Positions 18,953 through 64,000 of a DNA stretch of 64,000 nucleotides are shown piece by piece. Within the stretch, counting starts at the first letter, position 1, and each line of letters opens with the position of its first letter. The position numbers were made by a program, and so were the translations under genes. Origin of the DNA: a bacterium (lineage in GTDB: Bacteria > Patescibacteriota > Microgenomatia > UBA1400 > UBA12108); NCBI GenBank assembly GCA_043827085.1, contig JBDRPO010000004.1:2847-66846 (forward strand). The letters are read 5' to 3'. The notes below the pieces were generated by a model. That model made no database searches. It was not told the DNA's origin and was given only the letters and a program-made list of their open reading frames with translations.

Positions 18953-20461
18953 ATGCCAAAATTTCCTGATCCTACCAAAGACTACGGTGGCACACCCATG
19001 ACTGGCTCTATCGACTTATCTGCCGAAGCATCGGCGAAGGAGGCGGACATCCCCCCCACCCCGCTCTATCAAGCTCCAGAACCGACCGCCGCTCCCACTC
19101 CCGAACCGGCCCCCACACCTGGCAACCAAAGCGCCGGAACACCAGAAAATCAAACTCCCAAATCGTCGATTTCCAGTTCTCCGTTCCGCAATATGATGCC
19201 GATCTTAATCGGAGGTGGTGCCCTCATCCTTTTACTAGTCCTAGGGTTTACCATCGTTCCCAAATTCTTTAAAAAAGCCGAACCCATCACTCTCAACTAT
19301 TGGGGCCTTTGGGAATCAAGCTCCGTTATGCAAACCGTCATTGCCGACTACGAGAGTCAGAATCCAACCGTCAAAATCAACTACACCATGCAGAATATCA
19401 AAAACTATCGCTCGCGCTTTCTCACCGCCGGCACCCAGGGGAGTTCACCCGATATTGTTCGCATTCACAATACCTGGCTTCCCATGCTCAAAAAAAATCT
19501 CGCCCCCGCTCCCGATACAGTACTCACAACCAGTGATCTAAGTAGCTACTACCCCATCGTCCAAAAAAACTTCGTCAGTGGCGGCAAAATCTACGCCCTC
19601 CCGCTTGAAATTGACGGGCTAGCTCTCCTTTATAACGAAGATATCTTTAATGAAGCGGGTGCGACTCCTCCCTCCGACTGGAACACGCTGAGGAAACTTG
19701 CCTTTGACTTGACCAAAATCAACGCCGAAACCAAAATTATCGAACGCGCAGGGGTAGCGCTCGGTACCACCAACAATGTCGAACACTGGTCCGACATCTT
19801 GGGTCTCCTGATCCTCCAAAACTCCGGCAATCCAGGGAAACCCACCGACACTGCCGTTCAAGACGCTCTCACTTTCTACACCATCGTTTCCACCCAAGAC
19901 AAATCATGGGACTCTAGCCAACCCAACTCTGTCTATGCCTTTGCGACCGGTACCGTTGCCATGATCTTGGCTCCGTCCTGGCAAGTCTCCGAAATCAAAG
20001 CTATTAATCCTGATCTCCACTTTAAAGTCGCTCCCGCTCCCGTTTTGCCTTCTGCTAACTATGCCTGGGCTTCATATTGGGGTGAGGCAGTGCCACTCAC
20101 TAGTAAAAATCCTGAAGCTGCCTGGAAATTTATCAAATACCTAAGTACCCCCGAAGTCCTCCAAAAAATGTACGCCGGCGCCAGCCAAATCCGCGCTCTT
20201 GGCGAGCCTTACCCACTCACGAGTCTCAGCAGTACTTTAGCTAGCGACCCACTAGCAGGAGCATATGTTACTCAGGGTCCAAACTATGTGTCCTGGTATC
20301 TTGCCGACCGCACCTACGACGATGGGGTCAATACCGAATTTAGTAAGTACTACGAAGACGCCGTAAACGCCATCAATGATGGTTCGACTGTCGGGAGCAT
20401 CCTCAAAACTCTCGACGAAGGCATAGCCCAAGTTTCCGCCAAGTACCCCGAGGCAAAATGA
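18953..20461 (+). CDS. Extracellular solute-binding protein (ABC transporter substrate-binding protein, family 1-like), orphan
   Basis: N-terminal TM/signal anchor followed by an SBP fold (LNYWGLWESS...DIVRIHNTWLPMLKKNL). A family C repeat is in frame near the N-terminus (SAEASAKEA). No adjacent permease or ATPase gene. Confidence 0.65.
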   Translation: MPKFPDPTKDYGGTPMTGSIDLSAEASAKEADIPPTPLYQAPEPTAAPTPEPAPTPGNQSAGTPENQTPKSSISSSPFRNMMPILIGGGALILLLVLGFTIVPKFFKKAEPITLNYWGLWESSSVMQTVIADYESQNPTVKINYTMQNIKNYRSRFLTAGTQGSSPDIVRIHNTWLPMLKKNLAPAPDTVLTTSDLSSYYPIVQKNFVSGGKIYALPLEIDGLALLYNEDIFNEAGATPPSDWNTLRKLAFDLTKINAETKIIERAGVALGTTNNVEHWSDILGLLILQNSGNPGKPTDTAVQDALTFYTIVSTQDKSWDSSQPNSVYAFATGTVAMILAPSWQVSEIKAINPDLHFKVAPAPVLPSANYAWASYWGEAVPLTSKNPEAAWKFIKYLSTPEVLQKMYAGASQIRALGEPYPLTSLSSTLASDPLAGAYVTQGPNYVSWYLADRTYDDGVNTEFSKYYEDAVNAINDGSTVGSILKTLDEGIAQVSAKYPEAK

Positions 20462-29304: not shown

Positions 29305-32300
29305 ATGAAAAAATCCAAACTCAAAAAATCTCACCAGCCCAAATTTTACCCCTTCAAATACCTCAAATTCATCGCTCTCGCCACCATTATCTTTTTCGCC
29401 GGCTCTCTATATCTCGCCTTCCGTTACACCACCGGTCCCTTTGCTACTTTTGTCTTCCTCCATCCTCTCTCCGTCAATCTAATCAAATCTGACGTCCCCG
29501 AGCTAAATGCCAAAAATGCCGCCAAACAGGCCGCCGCTATCCATCTCAAACAAAAACCCGGTGATACAAAAGGAGCCGAAAAAGTTGCCGCCTCTGCCGC
29601 TAAGCAAGCCGTCAAGCAAACCATCCAAACCTTTGCTCCCCAGACAAAAGTGAAACCAGAAAATGCAATTGATAGTCAATCATCCACAGAACAAAAAATC
29701 ATGCAATTTGTTGAAGACACCACTGGCAAATCGCTTGATTTAAATGCTAGCATCTCTGACGCCATCAAAAAAGCTCAAGAATCAGTTGTTACAGATGACT
29801 TTGTTAGTAAAGCCGTTAATGATGCTAAATCAAACATTCCTGCAAGCTCTGGTACTAAATGTGGTAGTAGTAGCAAATCTTGCGGTGGTGGTAACGTCCC
29901 CGTCAAAGTTGGTTGCTGGGCCGCCACTGGTGGCGCACCAACCGATGAAGAGGGAAAAACTCTTCCTCAACGCTCCTGCGTCCGCTGCGGTCTCGATGCC
30001 TCCGGCGAGCCAACCTGGAATCGTGACGACAGTGGTGGTTCAGTATCCGGGAAAAACTGTAGTGATCTCTATAAACAAGATCCTTCCCAGGTCATCCTCC
30101 CCCCCAATCCTCCCACAGAATACACTCTCGGCATTTCTCAACCCAAGGGCGGGTGGGAAGGCACTAGGGTACTTGAGGATGGTACTATCATCACTTGTTC
30201 TGCCAAATTCGGTTGTTGGGATGGTGGCGCCAAAGCCAACTGCTACGATTCTGACGGTGGTGTCGTTGTGACCGGTGGCTCTGGCTCCGGTGGCAAGGGT
30301 AGATGTTTCAACGGTGGTTGGTACGAGACCGACTCTGCCTATCAAGAAGTATCAACTAATTTCGATAACACCATGAAAGCAAAATGTGAAGAGTTTGGTA
30401 AATCATTTAGCGGTGGCAAATGCGGCGGCAGCCAGGAACCTATACCCGAATCAGACTTAGGCATTCAACTTTCAGATGCACAAAAACAAGAGGAACTAAA
30501 GAAAGTCCAAGAAGCTCAAAGACTCGCCGAAGCCGCCGAAGCAAAACGCCTCGCCACTCAATATTCTGATAGTTCATGTGGCAGAAAATTGTATACTGGC
30601 GAAAAATGTTTCCCCGTCAATGTTAAAACATCTAGTGGCGAAAACCAAACCAAATACATGATCGTTCCCAATGACTTAAAAGCTACCATTACAACCCAGG
30701 GTGGTAACAACAGTATGGAGCGACAGTATTTTGCATATAAATTCGGCTCCAATTCCGGTGAAGCCAACATTCCCACCACCCCTAAACTCTCTCAAGATGG
30801 TGGTCAATTTGTCGTAAAAGCTTCAGATTGTGCAGGGGATGGCGCAAAGGGTGCTAAAGTTACTCGTTCCGGTAATCAAATGGGATATGCCTGTGGTAAC
30901 TCCAACGGTACTCCATTCGATTATGTTAAACAGCTCAACGAAATCACTGCCATGCAAAAAGCTGCAGAAGCCAAAGCTGTTTCTTCGAAAGATGACACTA
31001 TCGCGCTCCAAAATCAATCTGACAATACGCAAAGAGATAAATTGATCTTAGCCTACAATGCTCTCAAGCAAAACGGAATATCAATCAAAACAATCAAAAC
31101 TGACAATTGTAGTACCTCAGCCGATTGTCTTGACTACAATCAATATATCGATCTAATCGATCTAAATGATTTAAAACATCAAATAGACATTCATCACGAC
31201 ATCGTAAATTACGTCAATACGTATGAGCAAATTATCGATAATAACAAAAATGCGTTTTATGATAGATCATTCAAAAATTTTTGGACAGGTGAATACCACA
31301 CGAAAGTATATTGCGACCAAAACAAACTGAAGTGCATAAAAGTAGCCAATGGTATTGCCTATAATTATCTAACGGTAGATCAAATCAATACTAAAGCGGC
31401 AAGTTTACCAATCGAAAACTTTACACTCGCCCCCACCACAATTGTTTCTCCCACCAAGGAAGAATCAATCCTTACTTCTTCCGAAGAACTCCTTGCCAAA
31501 TACAACCAACTCGAAAAGGATGGGTATACAAAAACATTCAATGAAAATAATCAATACAAGATAGGGATTCTATGCGGAGACGATTGTATCAAGATTCCTG
31601 GACGTTGGTTATTTAACTACCTACCAGCCTCCACCATCGAGGAAATTTATAATAAATATTATCCAACCACTCAATCAGTCACAACTCCAACTACACCCAC
31701 CCCTCCTAACACTACTACCAACCCCGTCGCCGTTTATCCCGCCCCAGTCACTCAACCAGCCCCCACCCAACCAGGCGGCAATAGTTCAAATGGAATTAGT
31801 TTAGATTTTACCGTTGCCAAACAAAATGGCGTTACCACTCCAATGCCAGGTACCTACAGTAAAGCCACTCCAAATGGAATTCAAGTACTAGAACGCGGTT
31901 GTGGACCTCTCACCGTTTATAACGTCAAAAAATATCTCGGGCAAAATATTACCGTAGGCCAAGCCTATCAAGAATACAACTGGACTTGCACAGACAAAGG
32001 TTGTTCAACTAACGTTGATCAAACCCTCGCCGAATTAGGAGCTCGCGAAAGTTTCAAAAAGCCTATTATCGACGCTACAACTATTAAAAGTAAAGACGGC
32101 GTTTATCTTTATGGTGGTCAAGTTTCCGGAAACGAAGGCAGTAAAATTAACCACATATCAGCCTTTATTGTAGACAATGGTGTAGTCTACAAACTAGACT
32201 CCAATTTTGGCAGCAATAAGCCAGAGAAATGTTCCGACATCGCAAGTGGGAGTATTAAGTGTGGAGCTACCAGTTACCGCATAGCCCCAGCCGACCAATC

Positions 32301-32352
32301 TGACGGAATCGCCGATGCACTCTATTATCTCCCCGGCTCAGATACACAATAA
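29305..32352 (+). CDS. Large Cys-rich, Thr/Pro-linker-containing cell-surface protein (hypothetical)
   Basis: ~1015 aa. N-terminal signal anchor, K/A-rich segment, multiple Cys-rich modules, a TTPTTPTPPNTTTNP linker and a C-terminal globular domain. Confidence 0.4.
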   Translation: MKKSKLKKSHQPKFYPFKYLKFIALATIIFFAGSLYLAFRYTTGPFATFVFLHPLSVNLIKSDVPELNAKNAAKQAAAIHLKQKPGDTKGAEKVAASAAKQAVKQTIQTFAPQTKVKPENAIDSQSSTEQKIMQFVEDTTGKSLDLNASISDAIKKAQESVVTDDFVSKAVNDAKSNIPASSGTKCGSSSKSCGGGNVPVKVGCWAATGGAPTDEEGKTLPQRSCVRCGLDASGEPTWNRDDSGGSVSGKNCSDLYKQDPSQVILPPNPPTEYTLGISQPKGGWEGTRVLEDGTIITCSAKFGCWDGGAKANCYDSDGGVVVTGGSGSGGKGRCFNGGWYETDSAYQEVSTNFDNTMKAKCEEFGKSFSGGKCGGSQEPIPESDLGIQLSDAQKQEELKKVQEAQRLAEAAEAKRLATQYSDSSCGRKLYTGEKCFPVNVKTSSGENQTKYMIVPNDLKATITTQGGNNSMERQYFAYKFGSNSGEANIPTTPKLSQDGGQFVVKASDCAGDGAKGAKVTRSGNQMGYACGNSNGTPFDYVKQLNEITAMQKAAEAKAVSSKDDTIALQNQSDNTQRDKLILAYNALKQNGISIKTIKTDNCSTSADCLDYNQYIDLIDLNDLKHQIDIHHDIVNYVNTYEQIIDNNKNAFYDRSFKNFWTGEYHTKVYCDQNKLKCIKVANGIAYNYLTVDQINTKAASLPIENFTLAPTTIVSPTKEESILTSSEELLAKYNQLEKDGYTKTFNENNQYKIGILCGDDCIKIPGRWLFNYLPASTIEEIYNKYYPTTQSVTTPTTPTPPNTTTNPVAVYPAPVTQPAPTQPGGNSSNGISLDFTVAKQNGVTTPMPGTYSKATPNGIQVLERGCGPLTVYNVKKYLGQNITVGQAYQEYNWTCTDKGCSTNVDQTLAELGARESFKKPIIDATTIKSKDGVYLYGGQVSGNEGSKINHISAFIVDNGVVYKLDSNFGSNKPEKCSDIASGSIKCGATSYRIAPADQSDGIADALYYLPGSDTQ

Positions 32353-32483
32353 TCTTGTCTGATATTTCCATCAAGCCTGAAGGTATGCTATCCTACTTTC
32401 TGGCATTATTCCACCCCGGTATTCCACCCCGGGTGTGTTAGCCTTGTAGTTTAGAGTTTTTTCATTATTGGTATACTCGAATC

Positions 32484-33161
32484 ATGCCAATCAGGAAAGC
32501 CCCACTCGTTACAGGAGAGTATTACCATATATATAATCGTGGCATCAATCGGCGCCGGACTTTCACTGCCGAGAATAATTATCGAGATTATAATCGCGCC
32601 ATTCAAACCCTTGTCTACTATCGCCCCACAACCAATAAATTGAGATACTCCCATTTCCTAGCTAGGCCCAAGGACGAACAAAAAGACATTCTAACCAAAC
32701 TAGCAGAATCACCCCATAGAGTTACAATCATTGCCTACTGTCTCATGCCAAATCATTTTCACCTTCTCTTAAAACAAGAGGAAGATGGGGGGATCTCCCA
32801 GTATTTAGCCGACTTTCAAAACAGTTACACCAAATACTTCGACTCCAAACATAAACGTTCAGGCGCTCTTTTTGACCGCCAGTTTAAAGCAGTACTCATG
32901 GAATCTGAAAATCAATTGCTCCACTTGACTCGCTATATTCATCTCAATCCCTATTCATCCAATCTAGTTACAAATGATCAAATCGCTTCTTATCCATATT
33001 CATCACTACCTGAGTACTTATCAGGCAACTATCATCTCGCCAATCCAGGGGTAGTGTTGGATATCAATCCTCGCCGCTACGAGTCATTCGTCCTAGACAA
33101 TGCTGACTACCAACAGCAATTAGAACGTCTCAAACACGTCAGTCTCGATCTAGAAGTATGA
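32484..33161 (+). CDS. IS200/IS605-like HuH Y1 tyrosine transposase (REP-associated tyrosine transposase / RAYT-like)
   Basis: N-terminal YHIYNRGINRR, HuH motif HFHLLL and a catalytic Tyr in RYIHLNP. 225 aa, larger than IS200 TnpA, as in RAYT-type proteins. Confidence 0.7.
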   Translation: MPIRKAPLVTGEYYHIYNRGINRRRTFTAENNYRDYNRAIQTLVYYRPTTNKLRYSHFLARPKDEQKDILTKLAESPHRVTIIAYCLMPNHFHLLLKQEEDGGISQYLADFQNSYTKYFDSKHKRSGALFDRQFKAVLMESENQLLHLTRYIHLNPYSSNLVTNDQIASYPYSSLPEYLSGNYHLANPGVVLDINPRRYESFVLDNADYQQQLERLKHVSLDLEV

Positions 33162-33200
33162 GTTGGCGGGACGGATTGACAATACCATTCATACCATGGT

Positions 33201-33491
33201 ATGTTTAGTATTATGAAACAAAAAATCGTCGTTAGCAATGTCAGGTTCCCTTATCAAGATTGGATTATGGTAAAATCCGGGGCAGCTAACATGGGAATGA
33301 GCATAAATGAATACTTTCAGTACTTAGCCAATACCGACACCATAAAACAAGTAACCGGCACTAAAAAAATCATTCCACATACCAATCGTGAGAAAGCCTT
33401 CTCCGAATTATTTAAATTCGCGAGCCGTAAAGTAAAAGGCAAACCCATGGGGGCAAATGAAGACGATAAAATAATTTATGGCATCAAATAA
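33201..33491 (+). CDS. Ribbon-helix-helix (CopG/Arc-like) antitoxin
   Basis: VRFPYQDWIMVKSGAANMGMSINEYF matches the RHH beta-strand/helix pattern. A 14-bp perfect palindrome CATACCATGGTATG (33192-33205) overlaps the start. Overlaps the downstream PIN gene. Confidence 0.5.
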   Translation: MFSIMKQKIVVSNVRFPYQDWIMVKSGAANMGMSINEYFQYLANTDTIKQVTGTKKIIPHTNREKAFSELFKFASRKVKGKPMGANEDDKIIYGIK

Positions 33492-33888
33492 TATATTTAT
33501 CGATACAAGTTGGTTCAAGGCATTAGCTGATCCACAAGATAACTTTCACGCAAAAGCCTTAACTCAACTACAAAACTTTTCCCAATCAACCAATTTTATA
33601 ACCACCAATTTTATTTTAGATGAAACCCACACCTTAATTCGAGTCAAAACTGATCTAGAGTCTGCTCTCAATTTTCGTACTCTTCTGACCAAATTAGGAA
33701 TTATTCTCAAAGTTGTTCGAGTACTGGCCCAAGACGAATTCAAAGCTTGGGATTGGTTCCCTAAGCAGTGGAAGCGCTTATCATTTACGGACTGTACCTC
33801 TTTTGCTGTCATGCAAAGACTCGATCTAAAAGATGTCGCTACTTTTGACGATCACTTCTCCCGTGCTGGCTTTAATATGTTATCCTAA
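33478..33888 (+). CDS. vapC: PIN-domain toxin (VapC family)
   Basis: IFIDTSWFKAL...LDETHTL...FTDCTSFAVM PIN acidic-residue pattern. Confidence 0.7.
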   Translation: MASNNIFIDTSWFKALADPQDNFHAKALTQLQNFSQSTNFITTNFILDETHTLIRVKTDLESALNFRTLLTKLGIILKVVRVLAQDEFKAWDWFPKQWKRLSFTDCTSFAVMQRLDLKDVATFDDHFSRAGFNMLS

Positions 33889-48751: not shown

Positions 48752-48787
48752 TCATTACTCTAATTATTCGAATAATCGAAGTATTGA

Positions 48788-51700
48788 ATGAAAAAACCAA
48801 CTAAAAACCTCGCATTTAAAAAAGCCTACAAAGCACTCAATGCCGAGCAGAAAAAAGCCGTGGACACAATCGACGGCCCAGTCATGCTCATCGCCGGCCC
48901 CGGCACCGGCAAGACCCAAACTCTCGCGCTCCGCATCGCCAACATTCTCAAGAACACCGACACTCCCGCCTCCAGTATTCTCGCTCTCACTTTTACCGAG
49001 TCCGGCGCCCGCGCTATGCACGCGAGGCTAATCAACATGATTGGTGCGGAGGCCTACTACGCCCACATCTCCACTTTCCACGCTTTCTGTATAGAAATCA
49101 TCAAAGACAACCCCGATCACTTCACCCTGAACCCCAATCTCGAACCTCTTTCGGATCTAGAGAAACTCAAAATTATCTATGAGCTAATCGACACTACGCC
49201 ACTCAAATATTTGCGCCCCGTGGGTGCCCCCCGTCTCTACGTCAAAGCTATCCTAGGAGCGATCAGCGATCTAAAGCGTGAAAGTGTTTCGGTCGACGAG
49301 TTTGAAGAATTGCTCAGAGCTGAAGAAATACTACTAAATTCGGATGATGCCAAAGATCTCAAGAAAGTTGAACTGACTAAGCGGCTTCACAATCTCGCCA
49401 AAAATAAAGAGTTGAATATCCTCTATGGCAAATACCAGGCTCAGCTCAAAAAACTTGAAACATTTGATTTTGAAGATATGATCTCCACGGTCGTAGCGGC
49501 ATTCAAGACAGATGGTGATCTGCTTCGTTCCTGTCAGGAAAAATATCTCTATATTTTAGTTGACGAATATCAGGACACCAACTCCGCTCAAAACGAACTC
49601 ATCCTTGCCCTGTCGAGTTACTGGGGAGATAACGCAAATATTTTTGTCACCGGCGATCCAGACCAGTCCATCATGCGTTTCCAAGGCGCCTCAATCGAAA
49701 ATCAACTTTCTTTCATTAAAGTGTATCCCAAAGCTACCGTGATCACGCTTCATGCTAACTATCGTAGCTCCCAAACAATATTGGATGTCGCAGACTCCCT
49801 CATCTCTCACAACAATCTCAGGATTAGCGACGTGGTCCCAAGTGTCGATACCCACTTAATTTCGCAATGTGGCAAAGGGGAGTCAATCGGACTAGCCGAG
49901 CTCTCTGGCAGTACCGCCGAAACGGTTTTCATTGCAGAAGATATCAAGCGCAAAATAAAAGGCAGAGTTAGTCCCACAGATATCGCGGTCATCTACCACA
50001 CCAACAAAGAGTCCATGATTATCGCCGACACCCTAGTCAAATACGGTCTCGACTACACCGTGCAAGGTGGAGCCAATATTCTCGCCGACCCGACCGTACG
50101 CAATTTTATTAAAATCTTAAAAGTCATTTATAAAATGCGCGATAGCGACGACGACGAAGATCTCTTTACCATTCTCCATTATGATATTTTTCATATCGAC
50201 CCCCTCGACGTTTTAAAAATCTCACGCTTGGCCGGGGTCAAGCGACTGAGTTTGTTTGATGTCATCGCAAGTCCAGAATTATTAAATTCACTTGACCTCG
50301 CAACTAGAGCCCAAATCAACACGACTATTACCTCGCTCGGTGTCTGGCAAGCACTGGACGCCAGTACTACCTTCAGCGAGTTTTTTGAAAAAGTCTTAAA
50401 CGAGTCAGGCTACCTCACCTGGGTTTTGGGACAGTCAGATGCACACCACCGCCTCGCTCGCCTCAATACTTTGTTCGACGAAGTCAAACGGATGAATCGC
50501 TCCGATCACGCCCTTGATCTCAAAGGTTTTATCGAGAATCTGCATATTATGGAAGACAACAATTTACGGCTCGAAGAATCGACTTATGGTGTTAGTCGTG
50601 ATGCTATCACGCTCACGACCGCGCACAAGAGCAAAGGTCTCGAATGGGAGCATGTCTATATCTATCGTGCGATCGACAAAGGGTGGGGCAACAACAAAAA
50701 GCCGGAGAAAATCACCCTCCCCGATGGCGTCTTAAAACACGTCAAGTTATCCGACAAAGAAAAAAATGAAGATGAGCGGAGGCTTTTCTACGTGGCTGCT
50801 ACCCGCGCCAAGTCAGAGCTCACGATCACCTATGCCGATTCTTATTCTAGCTATGGCACCTCCCGTGAAGCCGTCCCCACCATGTTTATTTCTGAGTTAG
50901 GCCTGCCCACCACAGCTTCTCGCGACAGCGGGATGCGGGCGGGAGACAGTCCTTTAAAAAAGCTCGACGTGCAAGCCGTCGAAAATGAAGCACACAAACA
51001 TATCGAAACTCTCCTTACCTCTCCAACAAGTAGCAATTATTCGCAAGCTGAAGAGGCTTTTCTCCAGGACATCGCCGACAATTACAAACTCTCCGCCACT
51101 TCGCTCAACTCTTATCTCTTTTGTGCTTACAAATTTAAGCTCGACAAATTGCTGAGAGTCCCGCACGCGAAAAAGTCTCACCTCGCCTTTGGTACTGCCG
51201 TCCACTCTGCTCTCGAGAATTTTTACACAAAGTTCAAAGATGAAGGTGTTGCTCCCGGCAAAGAGTATTTACTCTCCGAGTTTGCACGCGCGCTAAGTTC
51301 AGCCGTCATTACCAAGGCCGATTTATCTATCTTCCAGGCCAAGGGTAGGGAAGTCCTCTCCGCCTACTTCGATTTAAACGCCACTAGTTTTACCCTTCCC
51401 CTAGCGACAGAAAAAAATATTTCCGCGCATCTCGGGGATATCGAGATCTCCGGCAAACTCGATCGCCTCGAGTGGTCAAACAAAGAGGTTAAACTCGTCC
51501 GCGTCATCGACTACAAAACTGGCAGTCCCAAAACGATGGGGAAGATAGAGGGCACCACCAAGAATAGCGATGGTGATTTACAGCGCCAACTAGAGTTTTA
51601 CAAACTTCTCATCGATTCGGGTCCTGGGTTAAATTACAAATTTGGCGAGGCCATGTTCGATTTTGTGGAAGAACCACTCGACAAGGGTAAGGACGGCAAA

Positions 51701-51871
51701 CGCCATATCCTCGTCACTGACAAACAAGTCAACGATCTAAGATCTATGATCTATCAAACTATGAAAGATATCCGCTCGCTCCACTTCCCCCGCACGACTA
51801 ACTACAAAGCCTGCGCCAAATGCGCCTTCGCCGACCACTGCTACCCAGACGGTATTCTTACCAACCTCTAG
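48788..51871 (+). CDS. AddA-like single-chain helicase-nuclease: UvrD/PcrA superfamily-1 helicase fused to a C-terminal PD-(D/E)xK nuclease with a Cas4/AddB-type Cys cluster
   Basis: Walker A GPGTGKTQT, helicase motifs through motif VI, then a nuclease core (IDYKTGSPK; D...E.K) with C...CAKCAFADHC (C-x2-C-x5-C plus one upstream Cys). Confidence 0.8.
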   Translation: MKKPTKNLAFKKAYKALNAEQKKAVDTIDGPVMLIAGPGTGKTQTLALRIANILKNTDTPASSILALTFTESGARAMHARLINMIGAEAYYAHISTFHAFCIEIIKDNPDHFTLNPNLEPLSDLEKLKIIYELIDTTPLKYLRPVGAPRLYVKAILGAISDLKRESVSVDEFEELLRAEEILLNSDDAKDLKKVELTKRLHNLAKNKELNILYGKYQAQLKKLETFDFEDMISTVVAAFKTDGDLLRSCQEKYLYILVDEYQDTNSAQNELILALSSYWGDNANIFVTGDPDQSIMRFQGASIENQLSFIKVYPKATVITLHANYRSSQTILDVADSLISHNNLRISDVVPSVDTHLISQCGKGESIGLAELSGSTAETVFIAEDIKRKIKGRVSPTDIAVIYHTNKESMIIADTLVKYGLDYTVQGGANILADPTVRNFIKILKVIYKMRDSDDDEDLFTILHYDIFHIDPLDVLKISRLAGVKRLSLFDVIASPELLNSLDLATRAQINTTITSLGVWQALDASTTFSEFFEKVLNESGYLTWVLGQSDAHHRLARLNTLFDEVKRMNRSDHALDLKGFIENLHIMEDNNLRLEESTYGVSRDAITLTTAHKSKGLEWEHVYIYRAIDKGWGNNKKPEKITLPDGVLKHVKLSDKEKNEDERRLFYVAATRAKSELTITYADSYSSYGTSREAVPTMFISELGLPTTASRDSGMRAGDSPLKKLDVQAVENEAHKHIETLLTSPTSSNYSQAEEAFLQDIADNYKLSATSLNSYLFCAYKFKLDKLLRVPHAKKSHLAFGTAVHSALENFYTKFKDEGVAPGKEYLLSEFARALSSAVITKADLSIFQAKGREVLSAYFDLNATSFTLPLATEKNISAHLGDIEISGKLDRLEWSNKEVKLVRVIDYKTGSPKTMGKIEGTTKNSDGDLQRQLEFYKLLIDSGPGLNYKFGEAMFDFVEEPLDKGKDGKRHILVTDKQVNDLRSMIYQTMKDIRSLHFPRTTNYKACAKCAFADHCYPDGILTNL

Positions 51872-51934
51872 TATAATAACAGGAGTTACGCACTCTCCCC
51901 TCAATTAGTTTGATTTGACAATTCATTACAGGAG

Positions 51935-52582
51935 TTACGCACCCGCCATTAGTATCCCTTCATAATGTTTGATTCGGTTGTATCCCCAGCTCTGGTTGAA
52001 GATAAACTTTTCTTTGAGGGAATAGAGGGTTTCTGTGGTGTGTCTCTCCTTCTGCAAAATCAGGTAGCTCACACAGATACATAAGAGGTGCTTTTCTTGT
52101 GCCCTGGTTGATCTCGCCTGACATTCGGCAAAGTGGAGTTCTTGCTTGAGAAAACGGAAGACATCCTCAATGCACCACCGCTTTAGATACTCTTTGGGAA
52201 TATCTTCTTTTGTGAGGGATAAATCGTTGGTGCCCAGATACCGATGGTCGTACTTAACCACCTTGATCTTGCACTGCTCGCCGATATATCCAGTTGTTTG
52301 ATCACCTTCCTCAGTTAAGTCCTCATCCAGTCGACACCCGTTCACAACTCGATTCTTTTTGATTCTCCCCACCCAAGTCCAGCCATATGAGTCAAGGAGA
52401 TTGACGACCTCATCAGCCACATAAAAGGCATCCATCAGAACTCGCTGGGGATGAATACACCAGACCACTTTCACTTCCCGAAGCAGGGACTTGGCAAACT
52501 CAATCTTGGTTTTGTAGTGCTTGCGGTACCACCGCCAACACAGGGGAATCGTGACTTTCCCATTGCTCCACACGACCATCAC
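51935..52582 (-). CDS. IS transposase, C-terminal ORF (orfB) with DDE/RW..IE..F..LK signature
   Basis: LKRWCIEDVFRFLKQEL is the C-terminal signature of IS4/IS5/IS701-type DDE transposases. Confidence 0.65.
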   Translation of the reverse strand: MMVVWSNGKVTIPLCWRWYRKHYKTKIEFAKSLLREVKVVWCIHPQRVLMDAFYVADEVVNLLDSYGWTWVGRIKKNRVVNGCRLDEDLTEEGDQTTGYIGEQCKIKVVKYDHRYLGTNDLSLTKEDIPKEYLKRWCIEDVFRFLKQELHFAECQARSTRAQEKHLLCICVSYLILQKERHTTETLYSLKEKFIFNQSWGYNRIKHYEGILMAGA

Positions 52583-52917
52583 TAGGTTGTATCCAAAGAC
52601 ATGGAACTTTTGACATGAGTCATAAACCCAGCAGGCTTGGGAAATACTTTTCCAAATGGCTTAGCCAGTACCGTATCATCAATCGCTATCCACCCCGATC
52701 CCCCGAGCATGCCAAATAGGTGCACCACGACAAAACGATACCAACTCCTCCAGGAGAAGGACGAGGTCAAAAACCTAGTCAAGGCGTCATGGGAATAGCC
52801 AAACTGACGAAACAAGGAAGTAGTAGTGACCTTCTTCCCTTGCAATAATCCGCGAATGTAGCATACTAATGGGGCAGGCATAGTGATCCTTTCTGATATT
52901 CTAAGTACCAGAAACAC
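52582..52917 (-). CDS. IS transposase, N-terminal ORF (orfA)
   Basis: Contains IAIDDT (first catalytic Asp region). Ends one nucleotide into the start of orfB in another frame, indicating a programmed frameshift or an inactivating mutation. Confidence 0.65.
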   Translation of the reverse strand: MFLVLRISERITMPAPLVCYIRGLLQGKKVTTTSLFRQFGYSHDALTRFLTSSFSWRSWYRFVVVHLFGMLGGSGWIAIDDTVLAKPFGKVFPKPAGFMTHVKSSMSLDTT

Positions 52918-53187
52918 TATGCCTGCTTCACTAATGAATTGTCAAATCAAACTAATTGAGGGGAGAGTGCGTAACTCCTGAAAAAAAGAACTAGAAAATA
53001 AGCTAAAAGAGATAAGATGGAATCCAAAAAATAGTCATTAAATTCCACCCCAGGTGTATTTCCACTTCGCCTGCGGCTTCGGGCGGACTCAGCAGCTTTG
53101 TATTTTCAACACTTCGATTATTCGAATAATTAGAGTATCTCCTTTTTTTACATCTTGACTCTGTCTTGAAATAGTATATTACTACCC

Positions 53188-53460
53188 TTGTCATTTATTA
53201 TCGGACTAAACAATATGTGTCATACCGCAGATCAAATTACTTGGGTAGCAAAACAACTAGGTTTCAAGGACTTTCAATGTCAGAGGGAAAATGAATGTAA
53301 TGAAGAAAGTTGTCTCCTATGCGCCGATTTGGGTTTTACCCATGAAGAAATCATTACAATTACCAATTATCTTCAAGGACAACGGCAGATAGTCAGATTT
53401 GACGATATCGCAGTTCAAGCCAACTCGGTTGATTACACCCCGGGTGTGTCAGCCTTTTAG
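53188..53460 (+). CDS. Hypothetical Cys-rich small protein
   Basis: 90-aa ORF; no recognised motif. Confidence 0.25.
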   Translation: MSFIIGLNNMCHTADQITWVAKQLGFKDFQCQRENECNEESCLLCADLGFTHEEIITITNYLQGQRQIVRFDDIAVQANSVDYTPGVSAF

Positions 53461-53501
53461 TTTAGTCAAGGTCTGACCTTGCAGGGTGATAAACTACAAA
53501 T

Positions 53502-54212
53502 ATGCCCCTGCAAAAACTCCTCACCCATTTAGACAAGCAAAAAGACCCAGAGCGGGCAGCCAATCTCGCGCGATTTTTCAAAACGGGGGCAGGGCAGTAC
53601 GGCGAAGGCGACAAGTTTGTAGGACTCAAAGTGCCCGAGCTCCGTGAGGCCGTAAAGCTATATTGGCAAAACCTCACCCTCCTCGATCTTAAGGAATTGC
53701 TTCGCAGTCCCTACCACGAATATCGCCTCGCCGGTCTCTTGGTTTTAGTCAAAAAATACGAGAAGGGGAGACCCGCCGAGCAGAAAAAGATCTATGATTT
53801 CTACCTCGCTCACCTGGACCGTATCAACAACTGGGATTTGGTCGATCTCTCCGCCCCCAACATTGTGGGCGACTATCTCTTCACCCATCCCCGCAAACTA
53901 CTATACAAATATGTTTGGTCAAGTAATCTTTGGCACCGCCGGATCGCAGTTTTGTCCACTTTTACCTTTATTCGCGAGCACGACTTCACCGACTCACTAA
54001 AACTTGCCGAGCTTCTCCTCGCCGACCCTCATGACCTCATCCACAAAGCCGTCGGGTGGATGCTCCGGGAAATCGGCAAGCGCGATCTACCCACCCTGAT
54101 CTCATTTCTCGATGCTCACGCCACTGTCATGCCCCGCACCATGCTCCGCTACGCTATCGAAAAATTGTCTCCCGCTGCGCGGCAGAACTATCTGATACTA
54201 AAGAAACATTAA
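53502..54212 (+). CDS. DNA alkylation repair protein (AlkD/AlkC HEAT-like repeat glycosylase family)
   Basis: N-terminal LAREL...DPERAANLARFFKTG...GLKVPELR and an all-alpha repeat architecture typical of the PF08713 DNA_alkylation family. Confidence 0.7.
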   Translation: MPLQKLLTHLDKQKDPERAANLARFFKTGAGQYGEGDKFVGLKVPELREAVKLYWQNLTLLDLKELLRSPYHEYRLAGLLVLVKKYEKGRPAEQKKIYDFYLAHLDRINNWDLVDLSAPNIVGDYLFTHPRKLLYKYVWSSNLWHRRIAVLSTFTFIREHDFTDSLKLAELLLADPHDLIHKAVGWMLREIGKRDLPTLISFLDAHATVMPRTMLRYAIEKLSPAARQNYLILKKH

Positions 54213-63478: not shown

Positions 63479-64000
63479 ATACTTCTTCTGGACTATTTTT
63501 CTCCTCGCGATGGGGATCAGGGTATATGGTGCCTCGACCGAAGCTCAGTCATACGACATCGGTACCTATCACGCTTGGGGCAATCACTTGCTCGAGGTTG
63601 GTCCTCGCCATTTTTTTGACAATATTTGGTCAGATTATCTCCCTCTCCCCATTTTGACTTTCGCTGTCCCCGCTTGGATCTCTCAAATTCTCCACCTCAA
63701 TTTTTCGCTCGTTTTCAAACTCTTTCACAGTCTGATCGAAGTCATCCTCATCCTCGTGCTCGGCCAGACCCTCGGTAAGTCTTTTCGCTGGATAGTATTC
63801 CTCCTTTTGTTGTCTCCGGTTTTGATTGGCGATACTTCTTTTTGGGGACAAGTCGATAGTCTTCCCTCACTCCTTGCCCTGTTGTCTCTCTCGCGCCTAC
63901 TCACGCCCGGTGTGAAGGGTGCCCACACACCGGGCGTGTTTATTTTCGCAATCCTTTACGGGTTATCTGTAGCCTACAAACCTATCATGATTTTAATCGC
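63452..64000 (+). CDS. Polytopic membrane protein, probable GT-C-type glycosyltransferase (5' partial; continues beyond the window)
   Basis: Open frame from ATG 63452 to the window end, with several TM helices. Contains an in-frame 36-bp perfect palindrome at 63903-63938. Confidence 0.4.

What the first reader, a model, noticed from the sequence alone, without database searches (positions are those of the whole stretch)
32484..33161. IS200-like HuH/Y1 tyrosine transposase (RAYT-type) embedded among the palindromic repeats
The 225-aa protein has HuH (HFHLLL) and catalytic Tyr (RYIHLNP) motifs and the YHIYNRGINRR N-terminus typical of REP-associated tyrosine transposases. It is flanked upstream by the CCACCCCGG-containing family F hairpins (32420-32462; related copy 53430-53462) and downstream by a CATACCATGGTATG palindrome. 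A RAYT is the expected mobilising enzyme for REP/BIME-type hairpins, so it is a plausible driver of the repeat proliferation described above. RAYTs have been described mainly in Proteobacteria; one in this lineage would be notable.
Basis: partly seen in the sequence, partly recalled or inferred. Interest (0 to 1): 0.7.

Follow-up and report, generated by a model that had tools for sequence, protein, structure and literature searches.

The report
RAYT-like Y1 gene with cognate palindrome
The ORF is a real, intact, single-copy HUH/tyrosine ("RAYT-like") DNA-cutting enzyme of a type very common in CPR/Patescibacteria; it is tied to its own short palindrome, but nothing links it to the abundant repeats in this window.

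Summary

Its diagnostic motifs fit TnpA-Y1 subclass 2.1 (RAYT Group 1 / TIRYT). The clade is very common in CPR, so its presence in this lineage is not unusual.

The upstream CCACCCCGGGTGTG element is its cognate palindrome. It is 86% conserved against L001 while synonymous sites are saturated. In 40 related loci the same locus-specific palindrome lies just upstream of the promoter and again after the stop codon. It changes with the protein clade, occurs as rare solo copies, and lies in frame inside some paralogs.

CATACCATGGTATG is the promoter/operator of an inserted PIN toxin-antitoxin pair. The abundant GGWCNGWCC palindromes do not flank the gene, and the syntenic region of the closest relative, which keeps the gene, has none.

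Only one full and one partial solo cognate copy occur in 64 kb. This is a TIRtron/REPtron-like cassette, of moderate interest.

The parts
32484..33161 (+). Y1 HUH tyrosine endonuclease/transposase gene, 225 aa, class-2 (RAYT-like). It is identical to GenBank MFH2085254.1 'MAG: transposase [bacterium]'.
32520..32543 (+). N-terminal beta-1 motif YYHIYNRG (residues 13-20).
   Evidence: Y14, H15 and N18 are invariant, and R19 and G20 are at least 90% conserved, in 60 homologs. The model places strand E13-20 here.
32754..32762 (+). HUH motif H91-F-H93, within PNHFHLLL.
   Evidence: N90, H91 and H93 are invariant in 60 homologs. The motif aligns to the HUH of ISDra2 TnpA.
32934..32951 (+). Y motif YIHLNP. 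Y151 is the presumed catalytic tyrosine, and Y---NP is the class-2 signature.
   Evidence: R150, Y151, H153, L154, N155 and P156 are invariant. The class-2 signature is taken from Table 1 of PMC6006769.
32407..32432 (+). Perfect tandem duplication of the 13-nt left half-site TATTCCACCCCGG.
   Evidence: D4, 100% identity. The same layout, an extra left half-site 5' of the palindrome, is seen in L007, L056, L044, L083 and L090.
32421..32454 (+). Cognate 'family F' element: imperfect palindrome CCACCCCGGGTGTG (32424-32437) plus tail TTAGCCTTGTAGTTTAG.
   Evidence: About 86% identical to the L001 ortholog's upstream element over the 58 nt from the palindrome to the -10 box (counted from the alignment), while third codon positions of the gene are 43% identical. 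The core is conserved in L004 and L007 in other genomic contexts. The element is duplicated after the stop codon in L001.
32450..32477 (+). Promoter-like site TTTAGA-16-TATACT with a TG-extended -10. The -10 box ends 6 nt before the ATG, which suggests a leaderless or near-leaderless mRNA (inferred).
   Evidence: Consensus scan. The same geometry, a palindrome abutting a TTGACA-type -35 box about 45-65 nt before the ATG, is seen in most relatives.
53038..53090 (+). Partial solo copy of the F element: TTAAATTCCACCCCAGGTGTA followed by the spacer hairpin CTTCGCCTGCGGCTTCGGGCGGA.
   Evidence: Local alignment to the Y1-upstream segment of L001 scores 54, against shuffle mean 14.8, sd 2.6, max 27. 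On its own it is weak in nhmmer (E 0.64).
53431..53466 (+). Full solo copy of the F element. It lies at the 3' end of a small ORF and 36 nt upstream of the DNA-alkylation-repair-like gene at 53502.
   Evidence: 91% identical over 34 nt (D14). nhmmer E 2.5e-10. Sequence context.

Best explanation
What it is. The ORF encodes an intact, single-copy, mostly vertically inherited class-2 Y1 HUH single-strand DNA endonuclease/transposase of the RAYT-like branch. By its diagnostic motifs it is nearest to TnpA-Y1 subclass 2.1, which corresponds to RAYT Group 1 and most TIRYTs. It belongs to a large clade found throughout CPR/Patescibacteria.

The cassette (shown). Gene and palindrome form a REPtron/TIRtron-like cassette. 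A short protein-specific palindrome, often with an extra left half-site, sits directly against the gene's own promoter. In most relatives it is repeated just after the stop codon. The palindrome changes together with the protein clade. It occurs as rare solo copies elsewhere in the genome. In some paralogs it lies in frame inside the gene.

How it probably works (inferred from E. coli TnpA-REP and IS608 TnpA). When the DNA is single-stranded, for example at a replication fork or during transcription, the protein binds the palindrome folded as a hairpin. It cuts nearby using the HUH-bound metal and Tyr151, and it can rejoin the ends. This would occasionally copy or move palindrome-bearing segments. 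Binding at its own promoter could also give autoregulation.

State in this window. Only the upstream copy remains next to the gene. The position where the closest relative carries the downstream copy is occupied by an inserted PIN toxin-antitoxin module, which brings its own palindromic operator. The gene itself is therefore probably fixed in place.
For: Enzyme identity:
- Pfam Y1_Tnp match.
- REP_Tyr_transpos 56.5 bits against IS200 14.9 bits.
- Invariant HUH and Y---NP motifs.
- AF2 model with pLDDT 92.
- NHFH / FQ / YIHLNP / SS and the 225-aa length fit the subclass 2.1 row of Table 1 in PMC6006769.

Single copy and vertical inheritance:
- No second Y1 gene in the window.
- The 79% ortholog L001 has the same downstream genes (pyrH, M23 peptidase, GAPDH) in the same order.
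- Flanking genes are shared on both sides between species representatives with 65-79% Y1 identity in three other lineages; window/L001 shares the downstream side.
- dN is 0.15 with saturated dS for window/L001, and dN/dS is 0.11 for L078/L086.
- Within-genome paralogs are only 49-66% identical.
- A decayed 32-codon remnant sits at the same locus in L120/L121.

Link between gene and palindrome:
- The upstream element is about 86% conserved against L001, compared with 43% at third codon positions.
- The core is conserved in L004 and L007 despite different neighbours.
- In 40 loci the same palindrome of at least 13 nt lies upstream and within 260 nt after the gene. The non-cognate background is 0.095 per 100 kb.
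- Palindrome type follows the protein tree.
- In L120 the palindrome has degenerated along with the pseudogene.

Mobility of the palindrome:
- Solo copies lie in the window at 53038-53090 and 53431-53466.
- Distal cognate copies occur at 1.6 per 100 kb against a control of 0.095.
- Gene-less composite copies are present in metagenome contigs L090, L104, L110, L111 and L113.
- In-frame copies lie inside paralogs L076, L077, L073, L082, L085, L079, L087, L034 and L045.
Against: - No cleavage, binding or transposition was observed. The mechanism rests on analogy.
- The window's own palindrome is short and imperfect, and it is not unusually stable as a hairpin (z -1.7).
- The window has only one full and one partial solo copy. 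Family-wide, only 3 distal copies were found in 188 kb. Mobility is therefore rare, or mostly in the past.
- The protein scores below NCBI's RAYT cutoff (56.5 against 80).
- No GT[AG]G guide tetranucleotide is present.
- No Pfam HTH domain is detected in the C-terminus, unlike many subclass 2.1 members.
- The subclass assignment rests on published motif signatures and not on a tree built with reference sequences.
- Because the palindrome always abuts the promoter, a purely regulatory role cannot be excluded.
Confidence: 0.7

Rival explanations
1. The palindrome is only a transcriptional control site. It would be an operator or UP-like element of the gene's leaderless promoter, bound as duplex DNA by the Y1 protein or a host factor. 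The protein would be fully domesticated for some function other than moving DNA. On this view, solo and downstream copies are portable or duplicated promoter pieces.
For: The palindrome always abuts or overlaps the -35 box. In Daviesbacteria-type loci the repeated unit includes the TTGACACCTGCGGAT box. Arrays of three half-sites resemble operators. The window's hairpin is weak as single-stranded DNA. Copy number is very low.
Against: The same palindrome recurs directly after the stop codon in 40 loci, in either orientation. It lies in frame inside coding sequence in nine paralogs. Both are hard to explain for an operator and are known behaviour of REPs (PMC6006769). The catalytic HUH and Tyr residues are invariant, so nuclease chemistry is under selection.
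Confidence: 0.17
2. One reading: a classical REP-associated RAYT that is the active driver of the abundant palindromic repeat families in this genome.
For: The protein is RAYT-like. GGWCNGWCC palindromes are strongly over-represented, 22 against 2.45 expected. Similar AAGGTCNGACCTT palindromes flank distant Y1 paralogs in other CPR genomes: L064, L076, L077 and L084.
Against: No GGWCNGWCC copy lies within 1.5 kb of the gene. The gene's conserved partner is a different sequence, CCACCCCGGGTGTG. L001 keeps the Y1 gene, but its 12.7-kb syntenic region contains no GGWCNGWCC. Each Y1 clade has its own palindrome, so this enzyme would not be expected to serve that family. There is no GT[AG]G foot. 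The downstream palindrome cited as support belongs to the TA module.
Confidence: 0.06
3. A canonical IS200/IS605-type insertion sequence: an autonomous, currently mobile element whose left and right subterminal hairpins are the flanking palindromes.
For: In L001 and 16 other loci the two flanking copies are in direct orientation, as in IS200/IS605 ends. The unit is compact, about 800 bp. The promoter lies inside the left end.
Against: The Y motif is Y---NP and not Y---Q. The protein is 225 aa and not about 150. transpos_IS200 scores 14.9 bits against a cutoff of 55. There is one copy in the window. Flanking genes are shared on both sides down to 65% protein identity in other lineages. Paralogs are 49-66% identical and never near-identical. 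No TnpB is among the neighbours. In the window there is no right-end copy.
Confidence: 0.05

Closest known systems
TIRYT / 'TIRtrons' (Di Nocera et al. 2013, PMC3733652), equal to most of TnpA-Y1 subclass 2.1 (Quentin et al. 2018, PMC6006769) and RAYT Group 1 (Bertels et al. 2017, PMC5581495)
   Same: The motif set matches: NH[YF]H, FQ, Y[IV]HLNP and a proximal SS motif. Length is 225 aa against a median of 238. Copy number is low and paralogs are divergent. The gene is flanked by short repeats that may be self-complementary and that form only small genomic families. Group 1 flanking 16-mers occur about 12 times per replicon.
   Different: No Pfam-detectable C-terminal HTH (Bac_DnaA_C / HTH_23 / HTH_28). 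The flanking motif does not fit GGGGWSAS; the reverse complement of the window's element reads GGGGTGGA. Flanking copies are often direct and not inverted. The palindrome is fused to the gene's promoter. About 31 query residues between beta-1 and alpha-A are unmatched in a proteobacterial homolog. The taxon (CPR) is absent from those surveys. Quentin et al. reported no REP-like sequences for subclass 2.1.
E. coli TnpA-REP / RAYT (subclass 2.2, Group 2; PDB 4ER8)
   Different: Only 16% identity. The profile search against PDB sequences gives E 0.015 for 4ER8. There is no GTAG-footed REP or BIME. The cognate palindrome is present in a few copies and not hundreds. The NCBIfam RAYT cutoff is not reached.
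IS200/IS605 TnpA (IS608, ISDra2; subclass 1.1)
   Different: Y---NP and not Y---Q. The protein is about 75 residues longer. It is single-copy and syntenic, has no TnpB, and shows no near-identical copies.
TnpA-Y1 subclass 2.4 (Cyanobacteria / Bacteroidetes)
   Same: Cognate palindromes are inserted in frame inside the Y1 gene itself. This is seen here in nine paralogs, at about residues 51-62 or directly after YIHxNP. Quentin et al. describe it for subclass 2.4.
   Different: Subclass 2.4 has WQ / YIxNNP motifs and GT[AG]G-footed long REPs. [quoted passage not shown] The window's own gene carries no such internal copy.

Membership tests
IS200/IS605 TnpA (TnpA-Y1 subclass 1.1) | HuH motif DH[VI]H and Y motif Y[IV]ENQ (Y---Q). 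| tested here: not met
   The query has NHFH and YIHLNP. Signatures are from Table 1 of PMC6006769.
IS200/IS605 TnpA (TnpA-Y1 subclass 1.1) | Reaches the curated NCBIfam transpos_IS200 score. | tested here: not met
   14.9 bits against a cutoff of 55.
IS200/IS605 TnpA (TnpA-Y1 subclass 1.1) | Multiple near-identical copies per genome (IS behaviour). | tested here: not met
   One copy in 64 kb. Paralogs within other genomes are 49-66% identical. Flanking genes are shared between species representatives at 65-79% Y1 identity. The rest of this MAG could not be examined.
IS200/IS605 TnpA (TnpA-Y1 subclass 1.1) | Subterminal hairpins at both ends, with or without a tnpB partner. | tested here: inconclusive
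   Relatives have the palindrome at both ends. The window has it upstream only. No TnpB is among the neighbours.
RAYT / TnpA-REP in the strict sense (REP- or REPIN-associated) | Class-2 Y1 protein (Y---NP) with the TnpA-REP fold. | tested here: met
RAYT / TnpA-REP in the strict sense (REP- or REPIN-associated) | Reaches the curated NCBIfam REP_Tyr_transpos (NF047646) score. | tested here: not met
   56.5 bits against a cutoff of 80. Relatives L004, L018 and L077 score 50-52 bits.
RAYT / TnpA-REP in the strict sense (REP- or REPIN-associated) | Gene flanked by REPs with a 5' GT[AG]G foot, in inverted orientation. | tested here: not met
   No GT[AG]G foot is visible at the palindromes listed (checked by eye only). 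The window is flanked on one side only. L001 has direct copies. Family-wide the count is 17 direct, 8 inverted and 15 ambiguous.
RAYT / TnpA-REP in the strict sense (REP- or REPIN-associated) | The cognate repeat is abundant across the genome (tens to hundreds of copies). | tested here: inconclusive
   One full and one partial solo copy in 64 kb. Distal cognate copies occur at 1.6 per 100 kb in 188 kb of relatives' flanks, against 0.095 for the control. No whole genome was accessible.
RAYT / TnpA-REP in the strict sense (REP- or REPIN-associated) | Single-copy, predominantly vertically inherited gene. | tested here: met
TnpA-Y1 subclass 2.1 / RAYT Group 1 / TIRYT | Motifs NH[YF]H, FQ (W-motif position), Y[IV]HLNP and a proximal SS, with length around 238 aa. 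| tested here: met
   PNHFH, DFQNSY, RYIHLNP and YPYSS in 225 aa, compared with Table 1 of PMC6006769.
TnpA-Y1 subclass 2.1 / RAYT Group 1 / TIRYT | C-terminal HTH-like domain (Bac_DnaA_C, HTH_23 or HTH_28). | tested here: not met
   Pfam finds only Y1_Tnp at E<=0.1. The model shows a helical C-terminus (residues 164-223) of unassigned type.
TnpA-Y1 subclass 2.1 / RAYT Group 1 / TIRYT | Flanking terminal inverted repeats, many of them with GGGGWSAS. | tested here: not met
   The complement of the window's element reads GGGGTGGA, which does not fit. Flanking repeats do exist in relatives, but they are locus-specific palindromes.
TnpA-Y1 subclass 2.1 / RAYT Group 1 / TIRYT | Clusters with reference subclass 2.1 sequences in a tree or MCL analysis. 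| not tested
   No reference set was available. One proteobacterial long-type homolog, from the R. rubrum plasmid, is 27% identical over 174 columns.

The most novel reading that the evidence does not exclude
The CPR-wide clade is an undescribed REPtron-type system. In it, subclass-2.1-like Y1 enzymes, reported to lack REP-like partners, each have a co-evolving private palindrome fused to a leaderless promoter. The enzyme occasionally copies this palindrome-plus-promoter module to new sites, including in frame into genes. The solo copies would then act as portable promoter/operator units. The hundreds of natural protein-palindrome pairs would give a readable specificity code for HUH recognition of single-stranded DNA.
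Probability: 0.3. Interest if true: 0.6.

Novelty: new member of a known kind. Interest (0 to 1): 0.4.

Why it matters
For this window, the analysis corrects three things:
- The gene is not an IS.
- No evidence links it to the abundant repeats.
- One of its supposed hairpins is a toxin-antitoxin operator.

More broadly, RAYT-like or TIRtron-like cassettes turn out to be pervasive in the small genomes of CPR/Patescibacteria. The RAYT surveys I could read do not mention these phyla. The largest and least understood RAYT group, reported as having no REP partner, here shows a clear protein-specific palindrome partner.

The many syntenic, co-varying protein-palindrome pairs form a ready data set. 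It could be used to work out how these HUH enzymes read their DNA, and why genomes under strong reduction keep them. The blanket annotation 'transposase' is probably misleading for these genes.

Tried and rejected
- Rfam, whole window at gathering threshold and 32300-33300 at E<=10: only tRNA-Cys and noise. The upstream element is not a known RNA.
- A second Y1 gene in the window: none found by tblastn with 84 family members.
- Segmental duplication as the origin of the solo copies: the two 1027-aa ORFs next to the F copies are unrelated. The second is a UvrD/PD-(D/E)XK helicase-nuclease.
- CATACCATGGTATG as a diverged downstream copy: rejected, because the identical promoter/palindrome travels with the antitoxin in loci without an intact Y1 gene.
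- The 'CGCCGAAGCC...' repeats (D9) as partners of the spacer hairpin: by my reading all three copies lie inside ORFs and encode an AEA(S/K)AK-like peptide, so they are probably not a REP family. This was shown directly only for the copy at 19020.
- Whole-genome copy count through a metagenome scan for TCCCACMCCGGGTGTGGA: the 964-kb contig of L004 was not in that collection. Of 29 hits, about half are chance or coding matches in GC-rich contigs, and about 8 are true gene-less composite copies.
- Hairpin thermodynamics: not significant for the window's elements.
- The afdb50 fold library was unavailable.
- Sequence-only PDB searches were too weak to separate RAYT from IS200. Structure comparison was needed.
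- An empty site to define cassette ends: L118 lacks the gene but shows no clean junction, and L120 shows decay and not excision.
Full report
OBSERVATION

The ORF 32484-33161 (+) exists and encodes 225 aa with YYHIYNRG, PNHFHLLL (H91-F-H93) and RYIHLNP (Y151). It passes Pfam Y1_Tnp with 39.6 bits against a cutoff of 23. Upstream lies a perfect tandem TATTCCACCCCGG x2 (32407-32432). This runs into the imperfect palindrome CCACCCCGGGTGTG and the tail TTAGCCTTGTAGTTTAG. A 34-nt copy at 91% identity lies at 53432-53465. nhmmer finds exactly these two full copies in the window, at E 3e-11 and 2.5e-10. CATACCATGGTATG is at 33188-33201. The stated features are all present.

WHAT THE PROTEIN IS

NCBIfam places it nearer REP-associated tyrosine transposases (56.5 bits, cutoff 80) than IS200 (14.9 bits, cutoff 55). 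Sequence-only searches of the PDB are weak for both kinds.

HUH, R150, Y151 and H-L-N-P are invariant among homologs. Against the published signature table of Quentin et al. 2018, the motif set fits one row only. NHFH, FQ, YIHLNP, a proximal SS motif and a length of 225 aa match subclass 2.1. That subclass equals Bertels' RAYT Group 1 and contains most of the 'TIRYT' proteins of Di Nocera et al.. The IS200 signature (DH[VI]H, Y---Q, about 150 aa) is not met.

No TnpB is nearby. The neighbours are a 1027-aa ORF without Pfam hits, a PIN toxin-antitoxin pair, pyrH, an M23 peptidase and GAPDH.

HOW COMMON IT IS

The word-indexed search returned 7,983 significant homologs among the 8,000 candidates scored. 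The named top hits are Woesebacteria, Daviesbacteria, Curtissbacteria and Microgenomates 'transposases'. The exhaustive search of 50%-identity representatives gives 19,499 hits at E<=1e-3, 5,974 at 1e-10 and 278 at 1e-30. The window's protein is GenBank MFH2085254.1, 'MAG: transposase [bacterium]'. The gene is therefore ordinary for CPR genomes. The RAYT papers I could read do not mention these phyla.

INHERITANCE

The window has one copy. A 79%-identical ortholog (L001) has the same downstream genes, pyrH, M23 peptidase and GAPDH. Upstream it has a large ORF without Pfam hits, as the window does, but the tblastx comparison confirmed shared flanks only on the downstream side.

Among GTDB species representatives, flanking genes are shared on both sides for pairs with 65-79% Y1 identity in three further lineages. 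These are L017/L018/L020/L026, L030/L040 and L078/L086. Synonymous sites are saturated while dN is 0.15 for window/L001. For L078/L086, dN/dS is 0.11.

Paralogs within one genome are only 49-66% identical. Relatives L120/L121 keep a 32-codon remnant of the gene at the same locus, which shows loss by decay. This is the behaviour of a resident, selected gene and not of an active insertion sequence.

THE COGNATE PALINDROME

Between the window and L001, third codon positions are 43% identical. At identical fourfold-type codons the figure is 38%. Over the 58 nt from the palindrome to the -10 box, by contrast, I count about 86% identity from the alignment. Orthologs at 64-66% identity in quite different neighbourhoods carry AATCCCAC(A/C)CCGGGTGTGGAG at the same position (L004, L007).

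In 80 further loci, a locus-specific palindrome typically sits about 45-65 nt before the ATG. It directly abuts a TTGACA-type -35 box. In 40 loci the same palindrome of at least 13 nt recurs within 260 nt after the gene. Non-cognate palindromes hit at only 0.095 per 100 kb.

Orientation of the two copies is direct in 17 loci, inverted in 8 and ambiguous in 15. In Daviesbacteria-type loci the repeated unit is 41-50 nt and includes the -35 box.

Palindrome sequence follows the protein tree. Each paralog in a multi-paralog genome has its own palindrome. An extra left half-site 5' of the palindrome recurs, as in the window's tandem 13-mer. In L120 the palindrome has degenerated together with the pseudogene.

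EVIDENCE THAT THE PALINDROME MOVES

The window has a full solo copy at 53431-53466. It also has a partial one at 53038-53090. The partial copy aligns to L001's Y1-upstream segment with score 54, against a shuffle mean of 14.8 and maximum of 27.

In relatives, distal cognate copies occur at 1.6 per 100 kb, but this rests on only 3 events in 188 kb. The control rate is 0.095 per 100 kb.

A metagenome scan for the L004/L007 core found about 8 low-GC contigs with the full composite element, that is, half-site, palindrome, an 8-nt spacer and CCACMTCGGGAT. Where enough flanking sequence is held, these carry no Y1 gene.

In nine paralogs the cognate palindrome lies in frame inside the gene itself. 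It sits at about residues 51-62 or directly after YIHxNP. Quentin et al. describe this behaviour for REPs of subclass 2.4.

Copy numbers are low. This is comparable to the roughly 12 flanking 16-mer occurrences per replicon reported for Group 1.

WHAT DOES NOT BELONG TO THE SYSTEM

(a) CATACCATGGTATG lies between TTGACA and TATGTT, a promoter-like site scoring 10 of 12. It precedes a 96-aa antitoxin-like ORF and a PIN toxin. This pair is absent from L001. There, a second copy of the Y1 palindrome occupies the 83-nt spacer before pyrH. The same approximately 50-nt promoter-plus-palindrome precedes the same antitoxin in L118, L120 and L122, identical in L118 and L120 and with two substitutions in L122. 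L118 and L122 have no Y1 gene, and L120 has only a remnant. It is therefore the TA module's promoter/operator.

(b) The abundant GGWCNGWCC palindromes number 22 against 2.45 expected. None lies within 1.5 kb of the gene, and they differ from its conserved partner. They are absent from the 12.7 kb held for L001, which carries the Y1 gene. Their density in the window is ten times that in 459 kb of other CPR loci. Nothing ties them to this enzyme. Similar AAGGTCNGACCTT palindromes do flank distant Y1 paralogs elsewhere (L064, L076, L077, L084). A different paralog outside the window remains possible, but this is a lead only.

MECHANISM

Shown:
- an intact HUH/Tyr enzyme with the TnpA-REP fold;
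- a co-evolving palindrome at its promoter, and usually after its stop codon;
- rare solo and intragenic copies.

Inferred by analogy with TnpA-REP and IS608 TnpA: the protein binds the palindrome as a single-stranded hairpin. It cleaves nearby through Tyr151 and the HUH-bound metal, and it rejoins the ends. This would occasionally disperse palindrome-bearing segments. Occupancy at its own promoter may autoregulate a near-leaderless transcript, since the -10 box ends 6 nt before the ATG.

In this window only the upstream copy remains beside the gene, so the gene itself is probably immobile.

The main rival is that the palindrome is only an operator. Its constant fusion to the promoter and its low copy number favour that view. 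The post-stop and in-frame copies, and the strict conservation of the catalytic residues, argue against it.

COMPARISON AND VERDICT

It works like a RAYT. It fails strict RAYT membership: it is below the NCBIfam cutoff, it has no GT[AG]G-footed REPs, and no abundant family has been demonstrated. It also fails IS200 membership.

It fits the motif definition of subclass 2.1 / Group 1 / TIRYT, and the 'TIRtron' idea of a RAYT-like gene bracketed by private repeats. It differs in five respects:
- no detectable C-terminal HTH;
- no GGGGWSAS motif;
- frequent direct orientation of the flanking copies;
- fusion of the palindrome to the promoter;
- about 31 query residues between beta-1 and alpha-A that are unmatched in a proteobacterial homolog.

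I file it as a new member of a known kind, in a phylum group the surveys did not cover. Interest is moderate. The gene is routine for CPR, but the family-wide protein-palindrome pairing looks undescribed and useful.

CAVEATS
- No whole genome could be scanned.
- The subclass assignment rests on motifs and not on a tree.
- The hairpin-finding step selects the best hairpin per locus, although the independent downstream recurrence controls for that.
- Some MAG titles ('uncultured Gammaproteobacteria', binchicken assemblies) are quoted as given and were not verified.

Noticed in passing
window 33176-33888: A toxin-antitoxin module (96-aa antitoxin-like ORF plus a PIN toxin) is inserted between the Y1 gene and pyrH, relative to the closest relative L001. 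Its promoter TTGACA-18-TATGTT contains ATACCAT-TC-ATACCATGGTATG. The same promoter precedes the same antitoxin in L118, L120 and L122. In those relatives the slot before pyrH collects different TA modules.
   Followed up: yes
window, 22 sites, for example 3017/3091, 20477/20537, 21197/21248, 22016/22082, 23115/23169, 28765/28825/28846, 35447/35467: GGWCNGWCC palindromes occur 22 times against 2.45 expected. They often come in pairs 20-75 nt apart. By eye they are mostly intergenic and usually sit 6-8 nt upstream of TGnTAnnnT-like -10 boxes. They are absent from the syntenic 12.7 kb of L001 and ten times rarer in other CPR loci. At the GAPDH promoter, relatives L118 and L120 carry (GATTTACG)x4 in the same slot. 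This is a lineage-specific proliferation of unknown cause. Similar palindromes flank distant Y1 paralogs in L064, L076, L077 and L084.
   Followed up: partly
window 63902-63938: This is the longest perfect hairpin in the window, with a 13-bp stem. It is built from two F-like cores (CACGCCCGGTGTG and CACACCGGGCGTG). It lies in frame in a membrane-protein ORF and encodes TPGVKGAHTPGV. It may be an intragenic insertion of the Y1-type palindrome.
   Followed up: partly
window 51880-52980: An insertion sequence with perfect 49-nt terminal inverted repeats. Its DDE_Tnp_1 transposase is split into two minus-strand ORFs (51935-52582 and 52582-52917).
   Followed up: partly
window 48756-48788 and 53105-53137: A 33-nt inverted repeat (97% complementary) brackets the UvrD/PD-(D/E)XK helicase-nuclease gene (48788-51871) together with the IS element. 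The right arm lies between the two solo F copies.
   Followed up: no
L120 1078-1173 and L121 1011-1106: A 32-codon remnant of the Y1 gene (MPIRSVPIVTGEYCHILNCRINKAPTFTTDRD) with a degenerated upstream palindrome sits at the syntenic locus of a relative. It shows loss of the cassette by decay.
   Followed up: yes
L076, L077, L073, L082, L085 (after YIHxNP); L079, L087, L034, L045, L076 (about residues 51-62): Copies of each gene's own flanking palindrome lie in frame inside the Y1 coding sequence at two recurrent positions. This suggests that part of the clade-specific protein insertions may derive from palindrome insertions.
   Followed up: partly
L007 5889-5935 and L113 (after the palindrome): A second, GC-rich stem-loop (CCCGCCTGC...GCGGGCAGG) is inserted between the Y1 palindrome and its third half-site. 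L001 and window 53061-53085 carry a different hairpin (CTTCGCCTRCGGCTTCGGRCGGA) at a comparable position. The cassette's left end seems to attract other small hairpins.
   Followed up: no
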